Sequence record: MZ189261.1
Length of the DNA stretch: 64,000 bases
Reading direction: 5' to 3' (one strand)
DNA from: Escherichia phage S143_2
The translations under genes were made by a program, and so were the position numbers. Under the pieces are notes generated by a model. That model worked only from the letters and a program-made list of their open reading frames with translations, searched no databases and was not told the origin of the DNA. Positions within the stretch are counted from its first letter, which is position 1. Each line of letters opens with the position of its first letter. This document shows, piece after piece, positions 14,243-58,380 of this stretch.

Positions 14243-14250
14243 TATTTATA
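14243..14250 (-). promoter_or_regulatory. late promoter TATAAATA upstream of soc
   Basis: exact TATAAATA on minus strand about 30 nt before soc ATG. Confidence 0.55.
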
Positions 14251-26513: not shown

Positions 26514-26900
26514 TTATAGATTCGGTTTATATGATTTAAATGTTTCGAATTCGCCTTTATTCATAAGAGCTTTGAATTCGTCAGGACGCATAGCTTTGTC
26601 GTCGATAATCCAATCATATACTGGTTTATGTGTTAGCAAATTATGGTACTTCAATCCAATGTTTGCCAAGTTCTGAATCAGACTTGGGAGAATGTCAATT
26701 GCTATACGACCAGGACCGACTGACTTCATACCGCGAGCAGTGTAAAGCGTTATGGTATGCCCTGCATCATACAGGGCATTAATGGCAGACACCATTTCGA
26801 CGTCTGGTTTGAAGTTCACGTAATCACGATTGTTATTCCACTCTGTTATACAATCATCGACATCAAAACAAAGATTAAGCATGTTTTTTACACGGTGCAT
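26514..26900 (-). CDS. HAD-superfamily phosphatase-like protein
   Basis: FDVDDCIT near N-terminus, TLYTARG, WIIDDKA; start overlaps upstream stop. Confidence 0.45.
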   Translation of the reverse strand: MHRVKNMLNLCFDVDDCITEWNNNRDYVNFKPDVEMVSAINALYDAGHTITLYTARGMKSVGPGRIAIDILPSLIQNLANIGLKYHNLLTHKPVYDWIIDDKAMRPDEFKALMNKGEFETFKSYKPNL

Positions 26901-28585
26901 TAGATTCGTTCCCATTGATGAGTGATATCGCCACCGATTGGACGATAAGAAACACCAGTTTCTTTATCAGTTAGTACCCATTTACCAGGATTTTTTGTAA
27001 TCAGAGTAGCCGTTACAGGTTCTGCTACATCATAACTAATAGTGCCGTCCTGAAGTACACGGCCCATGTTACGTAATTGCTTAGTCAGAAGTTCCATACC
27101 TTTATAATATGCGGCTACCGCTTTAAGTGGATTATTCTTGAAATAACCACCTAATGCAATCCAGATAATTGCCACTGCCAAATGATGATACTCGTTAAAC
27201 GAACTCATCTTTCCATATTTGTAAACTAATGGATTGATGTTAATAGTCACATTACAAGTTGTTTCATCAATAGTAAACTGACCCCAGGTCGGATTAGCGT
27301 TGAATTCATCATAACCTGAAACAGCGTAAAGCACTTTAGCTTCATCATACAATTTTGGCCCGTAAATCTTGGTTTCACCAAAATATCCACGAGGGTCAAT
27401 AAACTTGACTTCGCCGTTATCAGTAATCATAGTATTACTGAAGTTCGGGTCACCATGAATAACAGAGTACTGTCCCTGAGAACGGTTATGATAACGAATA
27501 AGGTGTTCTAAAGCTTGTTTCAGCATTGGCTTCAGACGCCCAATCTTAGTGTAGTTCACATGTGTGATTTTACCAAATGAATCAATCAATGGTTGAATAC
27601 TTTCACAACGATCAATAACTTTCGTATAGAACTCTTTAGTGAAATCACGACGAACAGTTTCAGGACTTACAAAATAAGTGTCTGTGCTGAATTTCAGTGC
27701 GTCTAAAATTGCATCAACAATTTGTGGACGAGCAAGACTTGATTTGGATTTAATATATTCAAATGCCGGCTTACCTTTAATGCGTTCCATTTCAAAGTTA
27801 TTTTCATTAACAGAAACTAACTGAGGAACTGAATCTGATTTCACTTTAAGATACCATGAAATCTCATCTTTCTGAAGAGCTCGGCCCTGTTCGGTTAATG
27901 CGAATTTAGTTACAGTTTCTTCACCAATTTCAACTGCATTAAAACTACGATTAAGTTCACGAACTTCATGAGCTTTTTCAAGTTTAGGCATATCACCTAA
28001 ATCAATTAGATTCATAAGCTCTGATTTATTGAATGCGCTGCCGTAAAGGAATTCTACGAAATCGCGTCCTTTGCAGTATTCATGAATTTCCTCATCAGTA
28101 GAACCCATATAGAATTCCCAGTCTTTGAACTGATAAATTCCTACAACATTACCACCTGTTGAACCTACGTTAGTGATATTTTCACCGTCGAAATTATATC
28201 GACATTCGTCGCCCTTAACATAGATTGCGTTAACATTCCAAGACCATGAACCAAAATCAGGAATAATATCACACCAGTTAACAATTACATTATGGCCGTC
28301 TAAATCTTTGTGTAATTTAGCAAGAGCATAAGCGGAACCATACGCTTCATCAACTGTACGAATAGTCACATTGAACCCTTCTTGCTCACAATAAGCTCGA
28401 ACAGTTTCAGCAAATTTTGAATGAACTACTACAATAATTTCATCTGCGCCAAGGTCAGAATAAATTGTATACAAATTGCTCAGAATAGTGTCTTGTTTAT
28501 AGTTAACAAGCACCTTAGGAATATGATGCGTTATTGGATACAAACGAGTTGCCAGTCCAGCACCAAGAATAACAGCTTTTTTCAT
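26900..28585 (-). CDS. bifunctional sugar-1-phosphate nucleotidyltransferase (N) / sugar kinase (C)
   Basis: N-terminal MKKAVILGAGLATRLYPIT...PK NTase signature; C-terminal HGDPNFSN...IDPRG Brenner motif; 561 aa. Confidence 0.7.
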   Translation of the reverse strand: MKKAVILGAGLATRLYPITHHIPKVLVNYKQDTILSNLYTIYSDLGADEIIVVVHSKFAETVRAYCEQEGFNVTIRTVDEAYGSAYALAKLHKDLDGHNVIVNWCDIIPDFGSWSWNVNAIYVKGDECRYNFDGENITNVGSTGGNVVGIYQFKDWEFYMGSTDEEIHEYCKGRDFVEFLYGSAFNKSELMNLIDLGDMPKLEKAHEVRELNRSFNAVEIGEETVTKFALTEQGRALQKDEISWYLKVKSDSVPQLVSVNENNFEMERIKGKPAFEYIKSKSSLARPQIVDAILDALKFSTDTYFVSPETVRRDFTKEFYTKVIDRCESIQPLIDSFGKITHVNYTKIGRLKPMLKQALEHLIRYHNRSQGQYSVIHGDPNFSNTMITDNGEVKFIDPRGYFGETKIYGPKLYDEAKVLYAVSGYDEFNANPTWGQFTIDETTCNVTININPLVYKYGKMSSFNEYHHLAVAIIWIALGGYFKNNPLKAVAAYYKGMELLTKQLRNMGRVLQDGTISYDVAEPVTATLITKNPGKWVLTDKETGVSYRPIGGDITHQWERI

Positions 28586-28626
28586 GTTGTGGTCCTCATT
28601 GGTAAGTAGGAGTATTGTACACTATT

Positions 28627-28770
28627 CTAGTTAAAGCATTCATACTTTGCTTGTAGTCCAATCATAATCCATCCGGTTATAAGAGTCGGAATCATTACTG
28701 GAGCCGTTAAGCTCCAGTAGATAGTCATGACAAGCATCAATAGTAAAAGTCCTATTGTTATTGCTTTCAT
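28627..28770 (-). CDS. small hydrophobic protein (47 aa, below cutoff)
   Basis: ATGA overlap with upstream stop; hand translation MKAITIGLLLLMLVMTIYW... Confidence 0.3.
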   Translation of the reverse strand: MKAITIGLLLLMLVMTIYWSLTAPVMIPTLITGWIMIGLQAKYECFN

Positions 28771-29402
28771 TGTTCGCCTCGTAACATGGCACCTAGTGCA
28801 CCGCCAGGGTGGAACTTAAGGAAGTCATTAGAGGTAAATCCACGTTCAGACGAAAGGTTGATAGCAAACGTATCGATAAGCGCTAACAACAATGTAGTGG
28901 ACATAGTCGGAGCCAGAGAATTCTCATCAACCTCTACTGCGATGCCTGTACAGAAAGAGTAATCAAAAAGGGCTTCATTTTCTTGTGGAATGTCTGGGTT
29001 ACAATGCAACAGAATCTGTTTGACGTTCGGACGAATCATTTTAAGATGCTTAGCCACGCCTATCATTTCTTCAGTTTTACCAGAACGACTAATATGAATC
29101 AACACATCATTAGGCGCAATGAATCCTGCATCACCGTGAGAATAATGCCCGGTGTTCAAGTACATACTCGGGATACCAAGTGAAGCAAATGTCTCAGAAG
29201 CTTTAGTTGCAATATTAGCATTCTTACCCACACCTGTAATAATTACACGACTTTCATAATTACTAAGTCCAGGGCGTCGAAGAGTTTCTAGAATAGCATT
29301 ATAACGAGCAGGGTTTTGACTAATTACTTTGGCCATAGCGGCCAAAGAAGAAGCTTGTTTTATGATTGCGTCAATAGCGATAGTAATAGGAGTAGTTTTC
29401 AT
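28767..29402 (-). CDS. SIS-domain sugar-phosphate isomerase, KdsD-like arabinose-5-phosphate isomerase
   Basis: VIITGVGKN, HGDAG, APTMSTT, FHPGGALG motifs line up with the KdsD SIS domain; 211 aa. Confidence 0.7.
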   Translation of the reverse strand: MKTTPITIAIDAIIKQASSLAAMAKVISQNPARYNAILETLRRPGLSNYESRVIITGVGKNANIATKASETFASLGIPSMYLNTGHYSHGDAGFIAPNDVLIHISRSGKTEEMIGVAKHLKMIRPNVKQILLHCNPDIPQENEALFDYSFCTGIAVEVDENSLAPTMSTTLLLALIDTFAINLSSERGFTSNDFLKFHPGGALGAMLRGEQ

Positions 29403-29442
29403 ATTTCTCTCATTTAATTAGTTTACCGTCCATGTCATTATA

Positions 29443-32154
29443 TCAAAAATCGAACATATCGAACAGAGATGCTTTCTTCTCGTAATCGAGTTTCGCTGCT
29501 GATGTGAATCCTTCAAGTGGTTTAATAAATGTCTTCTCAAGGAGAACAGTGTAGTCCATCCAATGAAGTACATCGTCTTTAATTAAATCTGTGATTTCAG
29601 TGCCAGAAGGCCATGCGATACATTTATCACCGAATGGGTTTCCTTCACGTAAAGGCAGAACATATACTTTTTCACCTTCTACAACTTGCGGTGCATCGAT
29701 ATTACCTTTGATAGCCCGGTTATACGTCAGAATTCCACGAATATGGAATGGGCATTTGGGACCAGGGAATCCACCTACATCATATTTAGCAATGTTATTC
29801 GCAGAAGATACCGACGCGATGCTAATATAATTCAATTGACGGAATTCTTTTTCAAACTCTTTAAAATATTCTTGTAATGATTCTTCACCTTCTTGAAGCA
29901 TACGACGAATACATTCTTTAAGAGCTTTCTGTACTGCTTTAGGAGTCGAAGATTTCTGAGTCTCTAGACCCATGATTTTGAGTTTAGGCTCAGCGTAACG
30001 AGTACCTTCCATATCCCACACGTTTAATGCATAACGTTTCTTACCAGTCCAGAATCCACCAATACCTTTAGAACCGAGTGGAGGCCCAGCGATAGCTTCT
30101 CGGTCCATGAACATTAAGTGTTGTTTATTGTTCATGTATTCACACATTTCACGGAAACCTCTATCAATAGCTGGTTCCATACGTTCACGTGCAAACTTAT
30201 CTAAGAAGTCTACCCAATGGTTGGTATCACGGAATTTAGATTCACCAACCTTATCGATAATTTTATCAGCAGATACGTAAATAGAGTCTGTATCACCATA
30301 AAGAACGAAAGCTTCACCTTCCGTACCACAAACTTCATTCAGATATTCATTAACTTTACGTTCAATCCACTGTAAAGCCATTTGTCCGAATGTTGTGATT
30401 GCAGTAGCATTACGCAAATCATAATAACGGAACCAAACGTTGCCAAGTGCACCATAAAGTGAGTTGATAAGCAATTTACGGTTAATTTGGGCAGTCATAC
30501 CTGCAACTTCAGTACGTTGAGCTCTAAACAACATTTCATTAAGAGATTTAGCAGACAACTTTTTAATCTTTTCTTTAATCTCATCGCTGAAGTCGAAACG
30601 ATAATCAACATCTAATGGTTCGTCAACAGAAAGATTAGGATTATGCAATGCCTCTTTAATTATTTCACCATTACGTTGAGCTGCAAGCATGTAACCTTTA
30701 TGTTCTTTACGTTGATTAAAGACCTTAGTGATTTCAGTTGGAACTACACCATCACGGTCTTTATAATACATCATGCCGTTAGGAGAACAACTGTACACAT
30801 CAGAAGGACGTTCAGCAACAGCGTTAATATAATCATGCAATGGAGCTACTTTAAACGTTCCTGCTATTGTTTCTGGGCTAATATTCACTTGGCGAATAAT
30901 ACTTGGATACAGAGATGTAAGGTCGAAACTCATTACATATTTGTATCGATTTGGAATAGGTTCCTTAACAAAAGCGCCAGGATAAGGTTGAACCGGGTGA
31001 GAACGACCTTGTGGAATCACCTTGTTCTGCTCTTTAAGGCTATTAAAAATAATAGCATCCCATGTTTTAATTGGACTAAACACAGATTGAATCTGTATCT
31101 TAGCATAATAACCCATGTCCAAACTCAAGTTGATGAACTGACGCTTAGCATCAATTTGCAATACACGATACACGTCGATAATGTTATAAGAAATATATCG
31201 TTGGTGATTGCTTTCACGAAGCTTAGAAATAGGGCCGTCATATTTCAGTTTACCAACGTTCAATTCAAATTCTGAAATGTAATCCAGAGAATACGACGGT
31301 TGATTGGTAAAAGAGAATTTTTTGTAAAGGTCAATGTAATCAAGAACAGATATACCGAACAATGTAATGATTTCACGAGAACCATACATGTTTTCGATAA
31401 CTTTAACACGAGTTTTACGATGCGGTGATAAACGTTTCGCAGTAGATTCGCCAAAAATATTCTTGATTCGGTTATACACATACGGAATATCAAATGACTC
31501 AACGTTCCATCCAGTCAAAATGACAGGAGTTTTCTGTTGCCAGAAGTTGAGATATTCCATCAACAATTCTTTTTCGTTATCGAACGGCATATAAATGATT
31601 TTATCGATAATTTCGGATGGAACTTCATCACCGCCCTGTTCTTGAAGCTTAGCAGCGATTTCAATAGACCATTCTTCCACATTACCGTATGGAGAATTCA
31701 ATAGATCAAATACGTAGAACCTGTCGTCAATTGAGTCATAATGGGTGATAGCATCAATCGGATGTTTTGCTTGTGACGGCTCAGGGAACCCATCGGGAGA
31801 TGTTACTTCGATGTCGAAGTTAGCCACACGAATTTTTGTATGGTCGTATTTGATTTCATAGTTATAAGTGTCAGACAAATACGCCAATTTGAAATCGTCC
31901 ATGCCAAGTGCTTCAAGACCGATATCTTCCATGCGTTTAATCCATTGGGAGGCATCACGCATATTGGCGAACAACTTACGAGTACACGGCTTACCGTAGA
32001 TATCGAAATATTTCGTAGCCTGACTTTCCGGACAATGAGCAAACAGTGATGGTTTATATTCTACTTCACGAGTACGTTCACGGCCATTAGAATCGATGTA
32101 ACGTTCAAAAATTGAATCACCAATCTGTTCAACCGTTAAGTAAAATTCTTTCAT
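29443..32154 (-). CDS. 43: DNA polymerase gp43 (family B)
   Basis: 903 aa, exo motifs (FDIE), pol motifs (SLYPS, YGDTDS), MKEFYLT start. Confidence 0.95.
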   Translation of the reverse strand: MKEFYLTVEQIGDSIFERYIDSNGRERTREVEYKPSLFAHCPESQATKYFDIYGKPCTRKLFANMRDASQWIKRMEDIGLEALGMDDFKLAYLSDTYNYEIKYDHTKIRVANFDIEVTSPDGFPEPSQAKHPIDAITHYDSIDDRFYVFDLLNSPYGNVEEWSIEIAAKLQEQGGDEVPSEIIDKIIYMPFDNEKELLMEYLNFWQQKTPVILTGWNVESFDIPYVYNRIKNIFGESTAKRLSPHRKTRVKVIENMYGSREIITLFGISVLDYIDLYKKFSFTNQPSYSLDYISEFELNVGKLKYDGPISKLRESNHQRYISYNIIDVYRVLQIDAKRQFINLSLDMGYYAKIQIQSVFSPIKTWDAIIFNSLKEQNKVIPQGRSHPVQPYPGAFVKEPIPNRYKYVMSFDLTSLYPSIIRQVNISPETIAGTFKVAPLHDYINAVAERPSDVYSCSPNGMMYYKDRDGVVPTEITKVFNQRKEHKGYMLAAQRNGEIIKEALHNPNLSVDEPLDVDYRFDFSDEIKEKIKKLSAKSLNEMLFRAQRTEVAGMTAQINRKLLINSLYGALGNVWFRYYDLRNATAITTFGQMALQWIERKVNEYLNEVCGTEGEAFVLYGDTDSIYVSADKIIDKVGESKFRDTNHWVDFLDKFARERMEPAIDRGFREMCEYMNNKQHLMFMDREAIAGPPLGSKGIGGFWTGKKRYALNVWDMEGTRYAEPKLKIMGLETQKSSTPKAVQKALKECIRRMLQEGEESLQEYFKEFEKEFRQLNYISIASVSSANNIAKYDVGGFPGPKCPFHIRGILTYNRAIKGNIDAPQVVEGEKVYVLPLREGNPFGDKCIAWPSGTEITDLIKDDVLHWMDYTVLLEKTFIKPLEGFTSAAKLDYEKKASLFDMFDF

Positions 32155-52710: not shown

Positions 52711-53712
52711 TTATTTCAGTAAAGTTACTTCAGAGATTTCCTCCCAACCATCTTTATCAGTTGAAATAAAATCTGCCACATAAAGAGCCGTACGTAATGA
52801 TACATTGCGAAGACGAGATACGTTAGCCTTCATCCAGGACAATGCTTTGTACGTTTCAGCATCAGTCAGACCACGTTTCTGCATCATGTCAGTAGATAAT
52901 ATTACATCTTCAACTCGAACCATAATCTCTTCATTAGAGTGTACTCCAAGATCGAGATATACTGAACGAGATACTAAAGCTTGAAGGTGAGGAGCAAGTT
53001 TCGAACCACGTTCTAACTCTTTATCAATATCAACGTTTGTAATGAAAACGATAGTACCTTCAAACTCAAATTCTTTATCAATACCCTTATCATCGAGATA
53101 AGATGACGCAGTGCTCCAACAAACTTTGCGTTTATCACCGGTATCTAATGCTGCTTTAAGAAGGTTCAAGATGTCCATATCCGAGAATACGTCAACGTCG
53201 TCGATTAAGAGAACGCTGTCTGCATCACGGTTGAGCCAAAGTTGTTCGTAAAGGCCAATACCAGAGATTTTACCATTAATACTTTTGTATTTGATGAAAC
53301 CATTATCATTAGCATTATTAAGTGCTTTATCCAGAGAATACGTCTTACCAATACCTGCTGCACCTGAAATAATGAGTGAACGAATTTTGCCATCGATAAT
53401 ACCATTCGTCATCATGTTCATTACTTTAAAGCGTTTGTTGATACGAGTTTTCATATCTTCAGTGCTTTCAACAACTGCAACTGGTGACGTCTCAACTCCT
53501 TCCATTACGATGTCTGATTTGAAGACCCATACTCCACGTTCAGAACCGTCAATCATAACGAAAATTTTACCATCACCTAAGTGGGAACATTCAGGATTAA
53601 GCTTTGCCGGGAACCAGGTCTTTGTGGCAACATAAGAACCAGAGATTTCGTTATTACGATAGATACCTTTTTTGATTTGAACGTTGAACATTTTATTCTC
53701 CAATTTACTCAT
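52711..53712 (-). CDS. P-loop ATPase (AAA-like) with N-terminal unknown domain
   Basis: Walker A GAAGIGKT, Walker B VLLIDDVD, 333 aa. Confidence 0.6.
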   Translation of the reverse strand: MSKLENKMFNVQIKKGIYRNNEISGSYVATKTWFPAKLNPECSHLGDGKIFVMIDGSERGVWVFKSDIVMEGVETSPVAVVESTEDMKTRINKRFKVMNMMTNGIIDGKIRSLIISGAAGIGKTYSLDKALNNANDNGFIKYKSINGKISGIGLYEQLWLNRDADSVLLIDDVDVFSDMDILNLLKAALDTGDKRKVCWSTASSYLDDKGIDKEFEFEGTIVFITNVDIDKELERGSKLAPHLQALVSRSVYLDLGVHSNEEIMVRVEDVILSTDMMQKRGLTDAETYKALSWMKANVSRLRNVSLRTALYVADFISTDKDGWEEISEVTLLK

Positions 53713-53760: not shown

Positions 53761-53979
53761 TTATTTGCGACGAGATTTTTTGGTAAGAGGTTGAAAGAAC
53801 ACTGCTTTACCGGCTGGGGTTAAGGTGACTCGTAATGCATTACCGATTCCTAAGGATGCTTTAACTAGACCTTTAGCTTTCAGTTCACCGAATGCTTGAC
53901 GTTGGTCTGCGTCACGAGTGTTAACCATAAGACCTTTATCACCTGCTTCACGAATCATTTCTAACATTTTGGTTTTCAT
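53761..53979 (-). CDS. small basic protein, possible DNA-binding
   Basis: ORF track 53761..54036 trimmed to ATG (MKTKMLEMI) behind GAGGAGAA SD. Confidence 0.45.
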   Translation of the reverse strand: MKTKMLEMIREAGDKGLMVNTRDADQRQAFGELKAKGLVKASLGIGNALRVTLTPAGKAVFFQPLTKKSRRK

Positions 53980-53998
53980 TTTGTTCTCCTCTTGTTTT

Positions 53999-54054: not shown

Positions 54055-54083
54055 TAACCCCCTAAAGGGACCCGAAGGTCCCC
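54055..54083 (-). terminator. UUCG-tetraloop hairpin
   Basis: minus-sense gggacc-ttcg-ggtccc. Confidence 0.45.
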
Positions 54084-54087
54084 ACAT

Positions 54088-54369
54088 TTACTTATCGCAC
54101 TTAGCAACATAATTAGGCATATCACAGAATACGGAGCGAGTAACTACTCGGCCCTTTGACCATGCTTCAGTTGCTTGTCCGGCCGTGCTATTAATATAGC
54201 TTGATCTAATGTTCTCAATACCCTGAGAATGTGATGCATTTACCGAACCATTAGAAGGCCCAGAAGACTGGTTACCACCAGCTCCTGCACTACCACCAGC
54301 AGCACCCGTGGTAGCACCAACAGAGAATGCCATCATTACTGCGAATAAACCAATTACTAATTTTTTCAT
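54088..54369 (-). CDS. secreted Gly/Ser-rich small protein
   Basis: signal peptide MKKLVIGLFAVMMAFSVGA; exact late promoter just upstream. Confidence 0.5.
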   Translation of the reverse strand: MKKLVIGLFAVMMAFSVGATTGAAGGSAGAGGNQSSGPSNGSVNASHSQGIENIRSSYINSTAGQATEAWSKGRVVTRSVFCDMPNYVAKCDK

Positions 54370-54400: not shown

Positions 54401-55390
54401 TTATTTATAGTAAGAATTATGATTTTCGAGATAGACTTGTTCAAGGAAGTCATCCCAGAAACTCATATCTACTTTTTGTTGCATACCGTTCTTGGCAGCT
54501 TGTTCTGACGCATGTTCAACTTGGTCAACGATATCTTCTAGGAATTCTTGTACAGTTTTAAAAGTATGTTTACCAAGCTTAACATCGAGAATAAATGGAG
54601 CATCCTGAAGTGGGTAAACCAGGTCGCCTGTTTTGTAAATTTCCAATAATTGAAGTCCACCACGGCATGCATGACTCAATGCTTTCCAGTCAATACCTTC
54701 GTTAGCTTCTGCTTTACGAGCACGTTCGCCATAGTTCTCTTCTAGTTTAACAAGGATGGCATTGAACTCTTTATTGGTTAACGTGTCTTGGAATTTACGG
54801 TCTAACAGATTATAGAATGTTTGCTTACCTGTTTTCTCGTTTTCGGTTTCAACCCATGAAGCAAATTCACCTACAGGCAGAACATTCTTCATATGTGATA
54901 AACGAATTACTGCACCATTATCAAAGTATTGTCCCCATTCATTAGAACGTTTAAGGGCTTGACGAAGAACAGCCAGTCGAGAACCCTTGACACCGTATTT
55001 AGAAGCTTGCTTACGGACATACCCTAAATAAGATTTCATGTTAGTGGTATAGAAACGAGACCTGTTATCTTGAATATACTTCCATACATCAGGCAAATCA
55101 GATTTAACTACTAGACTTGGTGGAGTGTGAAGCATATCTAATGCGACGGTTTCACCATCCGCAGCTAGTTTAAAGAAATATTTGAGACTATACAACTCAT
55201 GGTCCACGTCGTCTTTTGTGTTCTTAGAAGATGTGTTATTCGTGTTCTTGCTCATATGTTCTTTAACGTTACCGGTCAAAATATCACGAGCATGAGGGAC
55301 ATAAATTTCTTTAAAATCGACGTCAGATTCAGGAGTAGACGTTCCATAAAGGTGGCTACCAAAGTAGCCTTTCATAATTGTTTTCATCAT
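54401..55390 (-). CDS. nucleotidyltransferase-fold protein (Pol-beta superfamily)
   Basis: GS-x9-SDVD signature (YFGSHLYGTSTPESDVDF), 329 aa. Confidence 0.55.
   Translation of the reverse strand: MMKTIMKGYFGSHLYGTSTPESDVDFKEIYVPHARDILTGNVKEHMSKNTNNTSSKNTKDDVDHELYSLKYFFKLAADGETVALDMLHTPPSLVVKSDLPDVWKYIQDNRSRFYTTNMKSYLGYVRKQASKYGVKGSRLAVLRQALKRSNEWGQYFDNGAVIRLSHMKNVLPVGEFASWVETENEKTGKQTFYNLLDRKFQDTLTNKEFNAILVKLEENYGERARKAEANEGIDWKALSHACRGGLQLLEIYKTGDLVYPLQDAPFILDVKLGKHTFKTVQEFLEDIVDQVEHASEQAAKNGMQQKVDMSFWDDFLEQVYLENHNSYYK
54402..54409 (-). promoter_or_regulatory. late promoter TATAAATA
   Basis: exact TATAAATA on minus strand about 30 nt before ATG of 54088..54369. Confidence 0.5.
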
Positions 55391-55860
55391 TTAGCCTTAT
55401 ATTCAAGAGTAGGACAGACTTTTTCTTTACGAGCTTTAAGGTATTCACCTATTAATGATTTCTTACGTTCAATAGGCCCAAGTCCATTTTTAATTCGTTC
55501 TTGGTTTTGCGCAATGAGCTCAATTTCTTTATAATATTTTCTGTCGTTATATTTGTCTAACAGCCAAGACGGACCAATTATCAATCCGGCAGAAATAAAA
55601 GCCATGACTGCTACCATTAAAATGCCTACACCAATTGAGGCCGGAACTAATGTCCATAGACTGCTAAAAACAAAGAATTTAGTTAAAATTTCCTGGCCAA
55701 TGATTGTGACTGCTGCTAAAATCGCAAATACAATAATTGAAACAGCCAATACAGGGATTAACGTTTTCCAAAAATAAGCACACAACGTTTTCGGACGATT
55801 CCATGTACTATTGAACGCGGCATAAATTTTAAAGTGCCAAGAGTTTTCATTGATAATCAT
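55387..55860 (-). CDS. membrane protein (157 aa)
   Basis: two long hydrophobic segments. Confidence 0.5.
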   Translation of the reverse strand: MIINENSWHFKIYAAFNSTWNRPKTLCAYFWKTLIPVLAVSIIVFAILAAVTIIGQEILTKFFVFSSLWTLVPASIGVGILMVAVMAFISAGLIIGPSWLLDKYNDRKYYKEIELIAQNQERIKNGLGPIERKKSLIGEYLKARKEKVCPTLEYKAK

Positions 55861-55869
55861 AATAATTCC

Positions 55870-56400
55870 TTATTTCAAAGTTGGGATAATGGAATCGAGA
55901 TAAGCTTTAAGAGCTACAGCTTCGTCTTTGGTAAATGTAGTAACATGTGAACGTAAATCATCATTTTGGCGAATAGTTACGACATCACCATCTTCATAAG
56001 AATTCATGACTGCCAAAGTCGTGGTATAGTTTGGAGCTATTGGATTAATAATGTAAGCACCACGACTGATACCCCATTTAAGTTTAGCCTTTTCAGGTGG
56101 TTCGGATTCCAAGAATTCTTTCACCTTAGCAACGAATGTTTTCCAGTTATCGATAGAAAGGCATTTGTCTTCAGTTTCGATATTAGCACCGTTATAAAGC
56201 CCATGATAAAAACGAGCCTGAAGGTCTCCACCAATATTAATTGCCGATGCATGACCAGGCGGATTGAGTTTCAAAATCTCGTCTAGTTCCATAGGACAAA
56301 TAGTAATACCATCATCTTCCTGAGTCAGAACGTATACATTACCACGTTTTTCGATAGTCAAATCACCGAACAGTTCGGTTGTTTCAATTACAGTTTTCAT
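55870..56400 (-). CDS. hypothetical protein
   Basis: ORF track trimmed to ATG (MKTVIETT). Confidence 0.5.
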   Translation of the reverse strand: MKTVIETTELFGDLTIEKRGNVYVLTQEDDGITICPMELDEILKLNPPGHASAINIGGDLQARFYHGLYNGANIETEDKCLSIDNWKTFVAKVKEFLESEPPEKAKLKWGISRGAYIINPIAPNYTTTLAVMNSYEDGDVVTIRQNDDLRSHVTTFTKDEAVALKAYLDSIIPTLK

Positions 56401-56401
56401 A

Positions 56402-56581
56402 TTATTCACCAATTAAAGTTTCAACAAAATTCACCAAATCATTCTGACGAGAATCAACTTGTTTTTCATAAAAGTCTCCACAGTCATTTACTGCATGATA
56501 AGCTACATCATTTAAATCTGAATCAGCTTCACGTAAGTCATGGATAAGGTCCATCAATTTATTAGCTTGTTCACGGGTCAT
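56402..56581 (-). CDS. small acidic ORF (59 aa, below cutoff)
   Basis: hand translation MTREQANKLMDLIHDLREAD...; tight spacing. Confidence 0.3.
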   Translation of the reverse strand: MTREQANKLMDLIHDLREADSDLNDVAYHAVNDCGDFYEKQVDSRQNDLVNFVETLIGE

Positions 56582-57771: not shown

Positions 57772-57798
57772 ATATACCTCTTGGTTAGATATTAGTAT

Positions 57799-58380
57799 TT
57801 ATAACAACCCTGTCAAATCATTCCAATGCTTCCGGCATAATGACACATATCTATCAGTATCACCAATTTCAATTTGACTGCCATCTGTAATTGGAAGTCC
57901 GTCTTCCGTGACTCTAGCTACCATTGTGGCCTTTTTACCACAATGACAGACACCTTTAAGTTCAACAAGCTTATCGGCAATAGCCATTAATGCTTGAGAA
58001 CCTTCAAATAGATTACCTTTAAAATCTGTTCGTAGTCCATATGCCATTACCGGCACATTGTATACGTCAACAATACGACTAAGTTGATACACCTTTTCAG
58101 TAGTTAAGAATTGAGCTTCGTCAACAAATACACAATGAATATCCTTTTGTGCTGCAGCCCATTTATAGAATTCAAAGATATCCATGTCTTTTGTAATTAT
58201 ATTGGCGTCCTGACGAATACCAATACGAGAGACTATTTCACCTTTTGAATCGCGAGTATCAATAGCCGGTTTAAGAACTAATACACCCATGCCACGTTCT
58301 TTATAGTTATGAGCGGCAGTAAGTAATGAAGCAGACTTACCAGCGTTCATAGCGGCATATGTAAAAATTAAACTAGCCAT
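57799..58380 (-). CDS. tk: thymidine kinase
   Basis: Walker A AAMNAGKS, zinc-ribbon Cys pairs, 193 aa. Confidence 0.9.
   Translation of the reverse strand: MASLIFTYAAMNAGKSASLLTAAHNYKERGMGVLVLKPAIDTRDSKGEIVSRIGIRQDANIITKDMDIFEFYKWAAAQKDIHCVFVDEAQFLTTEKVYQLSRIVDVYNVPVMAYGLRTDFKGNLFEGSQALMAIADKLVELKGVCHCGKKATMVARVTEDGLPITDGSQIEIGDTDRYVSLCRKHWNDLTGLL

What the first reader, a model, noticed from the sequence alone, without database searches (positions are those of the whole stretch)
54401..55390. Pol-beta-superfamily nucleotidyltransferase-fold protein in the variable region
A 329-aa protein carries the GS-x9-SDVD signature near its N-terminus. This fold occurs in minimal nucleotidyltransferases, RNA-repair-associated enzymes, cyclic-nucleotide synthases and toxin-antitoxin components. 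I do not recognise it as a canonical T4 gene. Its neighbours are a two-TM membrane protein and a late-promoter-driven secreted protein.
Basis: inference. Interest (0 to 1): 0.5.

Follow-up and report, generated by a model that had tools for sequence, protein, structure and literature searches.

The report
T4 nrdC.11 ortholog: RlaP RNA-repair nucleotidyltransferase
This gene is an ordinary, already catalogued copy of phage T4's nrdC.11, a nucleotide-adding enzyme of the RlaP family that probably helps the phage patch transfer RNAs cut by bacterial defence nucleases.

Summary
The ORF at 54401-55390 (- strand, 329 aa) with the G11-S12-x9-S22-D23-V-D25 motif is real. It is not an unknown gene. It is the ortholog of T4 nrdC.11 (78% identity over the full length), with conserved flanks nrdC.10 and mobD.1. 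Copies 98-100% identical exist in more than 100 sequenced Mosigvirus-type phages, and about 1,570 phage records carry a homolog.

It scores above Pfam's curated cut-off for RlaP (PF10127). A December 2025 preprint showed that Pseudomonas members of this family add one or two NMPs to RNA 3'-OH ends, and it names T4 NrdC.11 as a family member.

G11, S12, D23, D25, D63 and D85 are at least 96% conserved in 145 homologs at 35-56% identity. A confident AlphaFold model shows a Pol-beta NTase core plus a helical domain.

The clade is a distinct "long" RlaP with a roughly 60-residue beta insertion. Its relatives in other phages and in bacteria sit next to RtcB, Pnkp, RNA ligase, Ro60 and a second short RlaP.

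In T4-like phages it is often translationally coupled to a fast-evolving two-TM membrane protein. That pairing is unexplained.

Verdict: already known, modest interest. The phage enzyme itself has never been assayed.

The parts
54401..55390 (-). CDS of the nrdC.11 ortholog: long-form RlaP-family nucleotidyltransferase, 329 aa (328 aa if the second ATG is used)
   Evidence: ORF; 78% identity to T4 NrdC.11; Pfam RlaP E=7.7e-13; PHROG 388; 100%-identical database proteins
54950..55390 (-). N-terminal Pol-beta NTase core (about residues 1-147). Conserved acidic residues: D23, D25, D61, D63, D85
   Evidence: Pfam match to residues 7-152; AF2 strands E3-10, E24-31, E45-49, E62-68; hhalign to canonical RlaP, probability 84%, E=7e-6, with D23/D25/D63/D85 aligned to D39/D41/D72/E94
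55316..55360 (-). G11-S12 ... S22-D23-V24-D25 signature: NTP-binding loop and the two metal-binding aspartates
   Evidence: Read directly from the sequence; G11, S12, S22, D23 and D25 are invariant or at least 99% conserved in 65-145 diverged homologs
55202..55204 (-). D63 codon: probable third catalytic carboxylate, at the start of strand E62-68
   Evidence: Invariant in A1; aligns with the invariant D72 of canonical short RlaP
54770..54949 (-). Clade-specific insertion of about 60 residues (about 148-207), poorly conserved, predicted as a helix plus a three-stranded beta sheet
   Evidence: Deleting it in silico lets the Pfam RlaP match run to profile positions 23-247 of 249; AF2 strands E177-184, E188-195, E198-201; it is the least conserved stretch
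54404..54769 (-). C-terminal helical domain (about residues 208-329) with a conserved basic/aromatic block: R223, D234-W-K-A, H240, R243, K271, G273
55387..55860 (-). Upstream 157-aa two-TM membrane protein. Its stop overlaps the nrdC.11 start (ATGA). Recurrent partner in T4-like phages; function unknown
   Evidence: PHROG 944; a homolog lies upstream in 43 of 84 related viral loci, often abutting; AF2 hairpin of two long helices, pLDDT 71.6; no PADLOC or PDB match
54402..54409 (-). TATAAATA T4-type late-promoter motif embedded in the last codons of nrdC.11; it would drive the downstream 93-aa secreted-protein ORF (54088-54369)
   Evidence: only 3 copies in 64 kb (7.3 expected), all on the coding strand

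Best explanation
The ORF encodes the Mosigvirus ortholog of T4 NrdC.11, a 'long-form' member of the RlaP (PF10127) family of Pol-beta-fold nucleotidyltransferases.

Shown here:
- Orthology to T4 nrdC.11 and conserved synteny.
- A conserved active site: the G11-S12 loop and the carboxylates D23, D25 and D63, with D61 and D85 also conserved.
- A confident two-domain model with an NTase core and a helical domain.
- Family membership above Pfam's curated cut-off.
- Recurrent placement of clade relatives inside RNA-repair operons.

Inferred from the biochemistry of Pseudomonas RlaP: the enzyme uses two divalent metals (probably Mn2+) to transfer one or two NMPs, without a template, onto the 3'-OH of a broken RNA.

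Most likely role (inferred): it works in trans with the phage's own Pnkp (PseT) and RNA ligases (Rnl1, Rnl2), which are encoded elsewhere in the genome. It would restore nucleotides removed from tRNA anticodon loops by host 'smart' anticodon nucleases of the RloC type, so that the resealed tRNA is functional. That would make it a counter-defence accessory that is dispensable in laboratory hosts.
For: Orthology and synteny:
- 78% identity to T4 NrdC.11 over the full length.
- Flanks nrdC.10 (78%) and mobD.1, with tk nearby.

Family assignment:
- Pfam RlaP at 49.1 bits against a cut-off of 23.
- 64 of 65 diverged homologs also hit RlaP.
- hhalign of the clade against canonical short RlaP gives probability 84%, E=7e-6. 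It aligns GS, D23/D25, D63 and D85 with GS, D39/D41, D72 and E94.

Active site:
- The motif and acidic residues are at least 96% conserved in 145 representatives at 35-56% identity.

Structure:
- AF2 model with pLDDT 88.8 and pTM 0.75.
- Best structural matches are Pol-beta NTases with a helical C-terminal domain.

Context of clade relatives:
- Phage contig L008: HD - RlaP - RtcB, adjacent.
- L009: RtcB 4.3 kb away.
- L115 (Nitrosospira): Ro60/TROVE - RtcB - ORF - long RlaP - short RlaP.
- L159: RtcB - long RlaP - short RlaP.
- L168 and L093: long RlaP with a T4-type RNA ligase and Pnkp.
- L135 (Bradyrhizobium): RtcB ... HD - long RlaP.

Partners in this lineage:
- The closest sequenced relative, NC_041863, encodes Rnl1, PseT and Rnl2.

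Literature:
- PMC12776372: Pseudomonas RlaP adds 1-2 NMP to RNA 3'-OH, prefers cleaved-tRNA mimics and Mn2+, and rescues aminoacylation of a tRNA missing one anticodon-loop nucleotide. It places T4 NrdC.11 in RlaP cluster 5.
- PMC7824862 predicts that RlaP restores nucleotides lost to RloC before ligation.
Against: - No biochemical or genetic study of NrdC.11 itself was found in the held library.
- The only family biochemistry is a non-peer-reviewed preprint on a different subfamily (cluster 1a).
- The C-terminal domain and the roughly 60-aa insertion of this clade are not significantly alignable to canonical RlaP, so substrate specificity could differ.
- In cellular genomes the long form often sits in tandem with a short RlaP. 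This implies the two are not redundant.
- At this locus, and in T4-like phages generally, no RNA-repair gene is adjacent. The recurrent neighbours are a membrane protein and the AAA ATPase nrdC.10.
- T4 tolerates loss of nrdC.11-mobD.3 (PMC9825161), and no phenotype is known.
- I computed no formal null for the neighbourhood associations. Only 12 of 80 cellular loci show an RNA-repair neighbour within 4 kb, and many of those contigs are short.
Confidence: 0.62

Rival explanations
1. It is an RNA 3'-end tailing enzyme with a different purpose. It might repair or complete tRNA 3'-CCA ends, for phage-encoded or host tRNAs attacked at the acceptor end. Alternatively it might tag host RNAs with short tails to alter their stability.
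For: Pseudomonas RlaP also labels full-length tRNAs and rRNAs and shows little NTP specificity (PMC12776372). One phage record annotates its homolog as 'tRNA nucleotidyltransferase' (H63). An HD phosphohydrolase gene recurs next to clade members (L003, L008, L099, L135). From my own knowledge, NTase plus HD recalls bacterial class II CCA-adding enzymes.
Against: No CCA-adding family (PolyA_pol or tRNA_NucTransf) was hit in Pfam or NCBIfam. The recurrent partners in relatives are ligases and end-healing enzymes (RtcB, Rnl, Pnkp), which implies internal breaks rather than 3' termini. From my own knowledge, classical genetics indicates that T4 tRNA maturation depends on the host CCA enzyme.
Confidence: 0.15
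2. It nucleotidylylates a non-RNA target, either a protein or a small molecule. Examples of that chemistry are aminoglycoside NTases (ANT/KNTase), AMPylators (DrrA, GlnE) and MNT antitoxins that AMPylate HEPN toxins. It could, for example, inactivate a host defence protein.
For: Structural neighbours include ANT(4')/KNTase, LinB, DrrA, GlnE adenylyltransferase and the MNT of an MNT-HEPN pair. The C-terminal domain resembles HEPN-like helical bundles.
Confidence: 0.08
3. It is a HalB-like oligonucleotide synthase working with the translationally coupled membrane protein. The pair would be either a Hailong-like two-gene module carried by the phage, or a phage decoy that supplies oligo-dA to keep a host HalA channel closed.
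Against: HalB is not detected by sequence or profile even at E up to 10, and PADLOC is empty for both proteins. The membrane protein model, which is low confidence (pTM 0.43), matches nothing in the PDB, HalA included. T4 itself keeps nrdC.11 without the membrane gene, having the mobD homing endonuclease there instead. Cellular relatives sit in RNA-repair operons, not next to channels.
Confidence: 0.05
4. It is a catalytically dead scaffold or a decaying remnant.
For: None was found. The gene is dispensable for T4 growth in the laboratory.
Against: GS, D23, D25, D63 and D85 are invariant or nearly so across homologs down to 33% identity in phages and bacteria. The ORF is intact and full length in about 1,450 phage records.
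Confidence: 0.02

Closest known systems
Phage T4 NrdC.11 (NP_049709, 336 aa; RefSeq product 'nucleotidyltransferase')
   Same: 78% identity over the full length. Same position between nrdC.10 and the mobD.1/tk block, same strand and same length class.
   Different: T4 has the HNH homing endonuclease mobD immediately upstream, where this phage has the 157-aa membrane protein. This phage has two extra small ORFs between nrdC.10 and nrdC.11. The 150-215 insertion region is the most diverged part.
RlaP (PF10127), as characterised for Pseudomonas fluorescens and P. aeruginosa RlaP in the RtcB-RlaP-RtcA operon (bioRxiv 10.64898/2025.12.29.696909)
   Same: Pol-beta NTase core with GS and conserved aspartates, followed by a helical C-terminal domain. 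Pfam score above the cut-off. Relatives of this clade are also encoded next to RtcB, RNA ligase and Pnkp.
   Different: It belongs to a different subfamily (the preprint's SSN cluster 5, against 1a). It is about 70 residues longer, with a roughly 60-residue beta insertion. The C-terminal domain is not significantly alignable. It is not linked to a ligase in this genome. The activity of this clade is untested. In bacteria it often co-occurs in tandem with a canonical short RlaP.
Hailong HalB (PDB 9dbh/9dbj), a tyrosine-primed oligo-dA synthase of an anti-phage system
   Different: No detectable sequence or profile similarity. HalB is 217 aa and lacks the insertion. The partner membrane protein shows no similarity to HalA. 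The genomic contexts of relatives are RNA-repair operons.
Kanamycin nucleotidyltransferase ANT(4') and related minimal NTases with HEPN-like C-terminal domains
   Same: Two-domain layout: an N-terminal Pol-beta NTase and a C-terminal helical bundle.

Membership tests
Pol-beta superfamily nucleotidyltransferase fold | hG[GS]-x9-13-Dh[DE]h motif | tested here: met
   F10-G11-S12-x10-D23-V-D25-F is read from the sequence. These residues are at least 99% conserved in 145 homologs.
Pol-beta superfamily nucleotidyltransferase fold | Third conserved carboxylate on a later beta strand | tested here: met
   D63 lies at the start of predicted strand E62-68. It is invariant in A1 and aligns with the invariant D72 of canonical RlaP.
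Pol-beta superfamily nucleotidyltransferase fold | Alpha/beta NTase core recognisable by structure comparison | tested here: met
RlaP (PF10127) | Score above Pfam's curated gathering threshold | tested here: met
   49.1 bits against a cut-off of 23, E=7.7e-13. 64 of 65 diverged homologs also match.
RlaP (PF10127) | Full-length collinearity with the family: NTase domain plus C-terminal helical domain | tested here: inconclusive
   The native match covers only profile positions 23-148 of 249. After in-silico removal of residues 148-207 the match spans 23-247, but it gains only 2.4 bits. hhalign against short RlaP aligns only the N-terminal 86 columns. The model does have a helical C-terminal domain. 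The PfRlaP crystal structure was not found in the PDB copy searched.
RlaP (PF10127) | Genomic association with RNA ligases or RNA-repair genes (the basis of the family name) | tested here: inconclusive
   Not met at this locus: no ligase or Pnkp is annotated in the collinear region of the close relative. In that relative, Rnl1, PseT and Rnl2 lie far from its nrdC.11 gene. Met for clade relatives: L008, L009, L115, L159, L135, L168, L093 and L104.
RlaP (PF10127) | Adds 1-2 NMP to RNA 3'-OH, Mn2+-preferring, RNA-specific | not testable with these tools
   Known only for Pseudomonas RlaP (PMC12776372). Needs an enzyme assay.
T4 nrdC.11 orthologous group | High full-length similarity and conserved synteny with T4 | tested here: met
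   78% identity with 100% coverage. nrdC.10 lies downstream in 37 of 84 related viral loci and tk is within 10 kb in 55 of 84. T4 gene map.
Hailong HalB-type NTase | Sequence/profile homology to HalB and a HalA-like channel partner | tested here: not met
   No PADLOC or Pfam CD-NTase hit. No CD-NTase or cGAS among the listed structural matches. No effector-like neighbour.

The most novel reading that the evidence does not exclude
In T4-like phages, the long-form RlaP and the small, fast-evolving two-TM membrane protein translationally coupled to it may form a functional pair. The nucleotidyltransferase's product or activity would be tied to the membrane. This could work like Hailong's HalB/HalA, the closest solved structural neighbour, or as a phage decoy against such oligonucleotide-gated defences. 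In that case it would not be a soluble tRNA-repair helper.
Probability: 0.05. Interest if true: 0.75.

Novelty: already known. Interest (0 to 1): 0.3.

Why it matters
T4's Pnkp and Rnl1 were the first RNA-repair system discovered. It has been an open question how phages cope with anticodon nucleases such as RloC, which also excise a nucleotide so that simple religation yields a dead tRNA. NrdC.11 is the obvious candidate for the missing nucleotide-restoring step, and it is present in about 1,570 sequenced T4-like phages. The prediction is already in the literature (Burroughs & Aravind as cited in PMC7824862 and PMC12776372). The value of this locus is therefore as a ready test case, not as a discovery. 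Three modest additions come from this analysis:
- The phage clade is a distinct long form with a beta insertion.
- It sits in tandem with a canonical short RlaP in bacterial RNA-repair operons.
- It has a recurrent, unexplained membrane-protein partner in T4-like phages.

Tried and rejected
- NCBIfam and PADLOC scans of the protein and its neighbours found nothing.
- Sequence and profile searches of the PDB (single sequence, A1, A2, up to E=10) gave only chance-level hits. These included a non-significant match of the insertion (residues 152-208) to the MTR4 arch region (E about 1.1). No RlaP, HalB or KNTase was found.
- The first search for homologous proteins list held only copies at least 98% identical. 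I needed the representative search and a profile query to get diversity.
- The search for related loci with alignment A1 failed because the alignment was too diverse. A2 worked.
- The C-terminal fragment alone hits nothing in Pfam.
- The Hailong-like idea was tested on the membrane partner with PADLOC, an AF2 model and Foldseek. No support was found, but the model is low confidence.
- The inactive-scaffold, CD-NTase and MNT-HEPN readings were rejected (see the membership table).
- I did not compute a formal background for the neighbourhood enrichments. I also could not inspect model coordinates to confirm that D23, D25 and D63 cluster in space.
Full report
**Observation.** The N-terminus reads MMKTIMKGYFGSHLYGTSTPESDVDFKEIY, that is G11-S12, nine residues, then S22-D23-V24-D25. 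Two adjacent ATGs are possible starts. The first overlaps the stop of the upstream ORF (ATGA at 55387-55390). T4 and most database annotations use the second, giving 328 aa. The motif is not a chance match. The protein hits Pfam PF10127 (RlaP, 'RNA repair pathway DNA polymerase beta family') at E=7.7e-13, with 49.1 bits against a curated cut-off of 23. It also hits PHROG 388 'nucleotidyltransferase' over its full length at E=2.6e-126.

**Identity.** The window is a T4-like genome of the Mosigvirus type. The gene is 98-99% identical in DNA to more than 100 sequenced phages, for example E. coli O157 typing phage 3, NC_041863. Proteins 100% identical to it are already in public databases under names such as 'nucleotidyltransferase'.

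It is 78% identical over its full length to T4 NrdC.11 (NP_049709, 336 aa, RefSeq product 'nucleotidyltransferase'). The flanks are conserved:
- The downstream AAA-type ATPase (52711-53712) is T4 nrdC.10 (78%).
- The upstream 180-aa ORF (55870-56412) is mobD.1 (43% identity; Pfam T4_y05I).
- tk follows at 57799-58380.

A nucleotidyltransferase domain match (COG3541) for nrdC.11 orthologs was already reported in 2006 (PMC1524935).

The gene is not variable. tblastn finds it in 1,567 phage records, and 1,450 of them cover at least 80% of the query. These are T4-like phages of Escherichia, Klebsiella, Aeromonas, Acinetobacter, Vibrio, Caulobacter and Sinorhizobium.

What is plastic is the immediate surroundings:
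- T4 has the HNH homing endonuclease mobD where this phage has a 157-aa membrane protein.
- This phage has two extra small ORFs between nrdC.10 and nrdC.11 (PMC2988022).

An exhaustive search of clusters at 50% identity found 3,214 representatives at E<=1e-3, of which 742 were below 1e-30. In an alignment of 145 full-length representatives at 35-56% identity, these residues are 96-100% conserved: G11, S12, S22, D23, D25, N57, D61, D63 and D85 (confirmed in A1 and A2). A second conserved block lies in the C-terminal half: G221, R223, D234-W-K-A, H240, R243, P260, K271 and G273. The 'inactive scaffold' scenario is rejected.

**Structure.** AlphaFold2, run with a 78-sequence alignment, gives mean pLDDT 88.8 and pTM 0.75. 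The model has three parts:
- An N-terminal alpha/beta core (strands 3-10, 24-31, 45-49, 62-68).
- A helical region with an inserted three-stranded sheet (177-201).
- A C-terminal helical bundle (206-328).

**Relation to canonical RlaP.** Pfam's native match covers only residues 7-152 (profile positions 23-148 of 249). When residues 148-207 are removed in silico, the match runs to profile position 247, but the score rises only from 49.1 to 51.5 bits.

I also ran a profile-profile comparison between this clade (A2) and eleven canonical short RlaPs (A4). One of them was scanned against Pfam and scores E=6e-81 on PF10127. The comparison gives probability 84% and E=7e-6 over the N-terminal 86 columns. 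It aligns:
- GS with GS.
- D23/D25 with D39/D41.
- D63 with the invariant D72.
- D85 with the invariant E94.

The probable catalytic triad is therefore D23, D25 and D63. This step is inferred, because I could not inspect the model coordinates. The C-terminal halves do not align significantly.

So the NTase core is a secure RlaP member. The protein as a whole is a distinct 'long' subfamily with a roughly 60-residue insertion, consistent with the preprint placing T4 NrdC.11 in a separate SSN cluster (cluster 5).

**What the family does.**
- Burroughs and Aravind named RlaP for its linkage to RNA ligases and predicted that it restores nucleotides lost from cleaved RNAs before ligation, for example after RloC excises the wobble base. 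I take this from citations in PMC7824862 and PMC12776372.
- The December 2025 preprint (PMC12776372) shows that P. fluorescens and P. aeruginosa RlaP label RNA but not DNA or protein.
- These enzymes add one or two NMPs (or dNMPs) to RNA 3'-OH ends and prefer Mn2+.
- They prefer the 5' half of a cleaved-tRNA mimic.
- They partly rescue aminoacylation of a religated tRNA that lacked one anticodon-loop nucleotide.
- The preprint explicitly lists T4 NrdC.11 as a family member.
- I found no paper that assays NrdC.11 itself.
- A genome-reduction study recovered viable T4 mutants that had lost nrdC.11-mobD.3 (PMC9825161). The gene is therefore dispensable in the laboratory.

**Does the RNA-repair context hold for this clade?** At this locus it does not. 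By collinearity with the close relative NC_041863, the window corresponds to the early region from rIIA to just past regB, and no RNA ligase or Pnkp is annotated there. That relative does encode Rnl1 (gp63), PseT polynucleotide kinase and Rnl2, far from its nrdC.11 gene. Any cooperation would therefore be in trans.

More distant members of the same clade are physically linked to repair genes. In phage contigs:
- L008 has HD_4 - RlaP - RtcB, adjacent.
- L009 has RtcB 4.3 kb away.
- L003 has RlaP - HD_4.
- Several other viral loci have Rnl1-, Rnl2- or Pnkp-like genes within 10 kb.

The clade also occurs on chromosomal contigs of Desulfobacterales, Nitrospirota and Alphaproteobacteria at 33-52% identity. 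I clustered all ORFs within 4 kb in 80 such loci without prior bias and checked the clusters against Pfam. The recurrent neighbours are:
- A canonical short RlaP immediately downstream on the same strand, in 14-15 loci with a median gap of 32 bp.
- RtcB, in 4-6 loci.
- Pnkp (kinase plus HAD_PNKP), in 5 loci.
- Ro60/TROVE, in 3 loci.
- A T4-type RNA ligase, in 2 loci.
- HD_4, in 2 loci.
- A ResIII helicase, in 6 loci.

Examples of gene order:
- L115 (Nitrosospira): TROVE - ORF - RtcB - ORF - long RlaP - short RlaP.
- L159: RtcB - long RlaP - short RlaP.
- L168: long RlaP - RNA ligase - Pnkp.
- L135 (Bradyrhizobium): RtcB - two ORFs - HD - long RlaP.

Twelve of 80 loci have at least one repair-type neighbour, and 24 of 80 do if the tandem RlaP is counted. 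Many contigs are short, and I computed no formal null. The tight operonic arrangements are the persuasive part. The tandem long-plus-short arrangement suggests the two forms are not redundant.

**Context in T4-like phages.** Across 84 related viral loci, a homolog of the 157-aa membrane protein lies upstream in 43. It often ends exactly at the RlaP start, even when only 22-48% identical. nrdC.10 lies downstream in 37 loci, and tk is within 10 kb in 55.

The membrane protein evolves much faster than the NTase. Its closest relatives are 84-96% identical, against 98-100% for the NTase. It has conserved N- and C-terminal motifs with invariant C27 and C149. It models as a hairpin of two long helices at modest confidence (pLDDT 71.6, pTM 0.43).

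HalB, the best structural neighbour, works with the membrane channel HalA (PMC13434031). I therefore tested a Hailong-like reading:
- PADLOC is empty for both proteins.
- Profiles do not detect HalB, even at E up to 10.
- The membrane model matches nothing in the PDB.
- T4 retains nrdC.11 without the membrane gene.

The idea is not excluded, but it is unsupported.

**Transcription (inferred from motifs only).** No terminator-like site on the - strand was found between about 56,750 and 54,085. The gene is therefore probably read through from upstream early-type promoters, for example TTTACA-17-TATAGT at 56745-56717. It would be co-transcribed with mobD.1 and the membrane gene.

A TATAAATA late-promoter motif lies inside its last codons (54402-54409). 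It is followed by the 93-aa signal-peptide ORF and a GGGACC-TTCG-GGTCCC hairpin (about 54056-54083). TATAAATA occurs only three times in the 64-kb window, against 7.3 expected, and all three copies are on the coding strand. This is consistent with the copies being functional.

**Conclusion.** The finding is real, and its fold assignment is correct. However, it is the already catalogued T4 nrdC.11 ortholog, a member of the RlaP family whose biochemistry has recently been described.

[quoted passage not shown] This would come ahead of ligation by the phage's own Pnkp and Rnl enzymes, as a counter to nucleotide-excising anticodon nucleases. I put this mechanism at about 0.6. The identity and family assignment are near certain; the substrate and the in vivo role are inferred.

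Rivals, in order of likelihood:
- Other RNA 3'-end functions such as CCA repair or tailing: about 0.15.
- Nucleotidylylation of a non-RNA target: about 0.08.
- A HalB-like oligonucleotide synthase tied to the membrane partner: about 0.05.
- A dead scaffold: about 0.02.

Novelty: already known. Interest is modest. It rests on the fact that a long-standing prediction about T4 RNA repair is directly testable with this gene, and on the unexplained membrane partner and the tandem long/short RlaP arrangement.

Noticed in passing
window 54401-55390 and many GenBank records: Many deposited phage genomes label the nrdC.11 ortholog 'thioredoxin'. This is apparently a name carried over from nrdC (the real thioredoxin, several genes away). 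The protein has no thioredoxin-like Pfam hit. UniRef cluster names also carry the error.
   Followed up: partly
window 55387-55860 (- strand): The 157-aa two-TM protein has a stop that overlaps the nrdC.11 start. It is the recurrent upstream neighbour in 43 of 84 related phage loci. It evolves much faster than the NTase and has conserved N- and C-terminal motifs (MIINENSWH..RPKTLCAYFW and E[YF][IL]KARK.KVCP..E[YF]) with invariant C27 and C149. In the model the N- and C-terminal strands pair with each other. It has no Pfam, PADLOC or PDB match. T4 has the homing endonuclease mobD at this position instead.
   Followed up: partly
L115 8001-9746; L159 3109-4895; 14-15 of the loci L089-L168: In bacterial genomes the NrdC.11-like long RlaP is frequently followed, on the same strand with a median gap of about 32 bp, by a canonical short RlaP (PF10127, E=6e-81). 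The pair is sometimes inside RtcB/Ro60 operons. The tandem paralogs suggest a division of labour or a heteromer.
   Followed up: partly
window 54088-54369 (- strand), promoter motif 54402-54409, hairpin about 54056-54083: A 93-aa Gly/Ser-rich protein with a signal-peptide-like N-terminus (PHROG 2243; weak YbgS-like Pfam hit, E=0.007). It forms its own small unit: a TATAAATA late motif upstream and a GGGACC-TTCG-GGTCCC hairpin downstream. It is absent from T4 and was found in only 2 of 84 related loci.
   Followed up: partly
window 53761-53982 (- strand): A 73-aa basic ORF (PHROG 6001, unknown function) preceded by AGGAG and its own early-type promoter-like sequence. It lies between nrdC.10 and nrdC.11, is present in only 5 of 84 related loci, and is absent from T4.
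   Followed up: no
window 14243-14250, 54402-54409, 57796-57803: TATAAATA occurs only 3 times in 64 kb, against 7.3 +/- 2.6 expected. All three copies are on the coding (-) strand. The third overlaps the stop codon of tk, just upstream of the rI.1-like ORF. This is the same 'late promoter inside the end of the preceding gene' layout as at nrdC.11.
   Followed up: partly
L003 8939-9445; L008 7423-8013; L099 7561-7989; L135 7487-8008: An HD_4 (RelA/SpoT-type HD) phosphohydrolase gene is repeatedly found abutting or overlapping the long RlaP gene, in both phage and bacterial loci. It may be a candidate end-healing partner. The NTase-plus-HD pairing recalls bacterial CCA-adding enzymes.
   Followed up: partly
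window residues 152-208 of the protein (nt about 54767-54937): The clade-specific insertion gives a repeated but non-significant profile match (E about 1.1) to the arch region of the exosome helicase MTR4 (about residues 704-846 across the different chains). This is probably chance. I note it only because, from my own knowledge, that region of MTR4 binds RNA.
   Followed up: no
window about 26600-29500 (inferred from collinearity with NC_041863 120941-123829): The close relative annotates arabinose-5-phosphate isomerase (KpsF), a GlmU-like bifunctional enzyme and phosphoheptose isomerase next to the DNA polymerase gene. T4 lacks these genes. They may relate to the alternative sugar modification of hydroxymethylcytosine in this phage group. 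I did not check this in the window itself.
   Followed up: no
L007 6350-11698: In one metagenomic phage contig the RlaP gene and an IS605 OrfB/TnpB (Cas12f-like) gene are flanked by two copies of the same three-gene block (DNMK-like, SSB, 142-aa ORF). This may be a duplication linked to the transposon insertion, or an assembly artefact.
   Followed up: no
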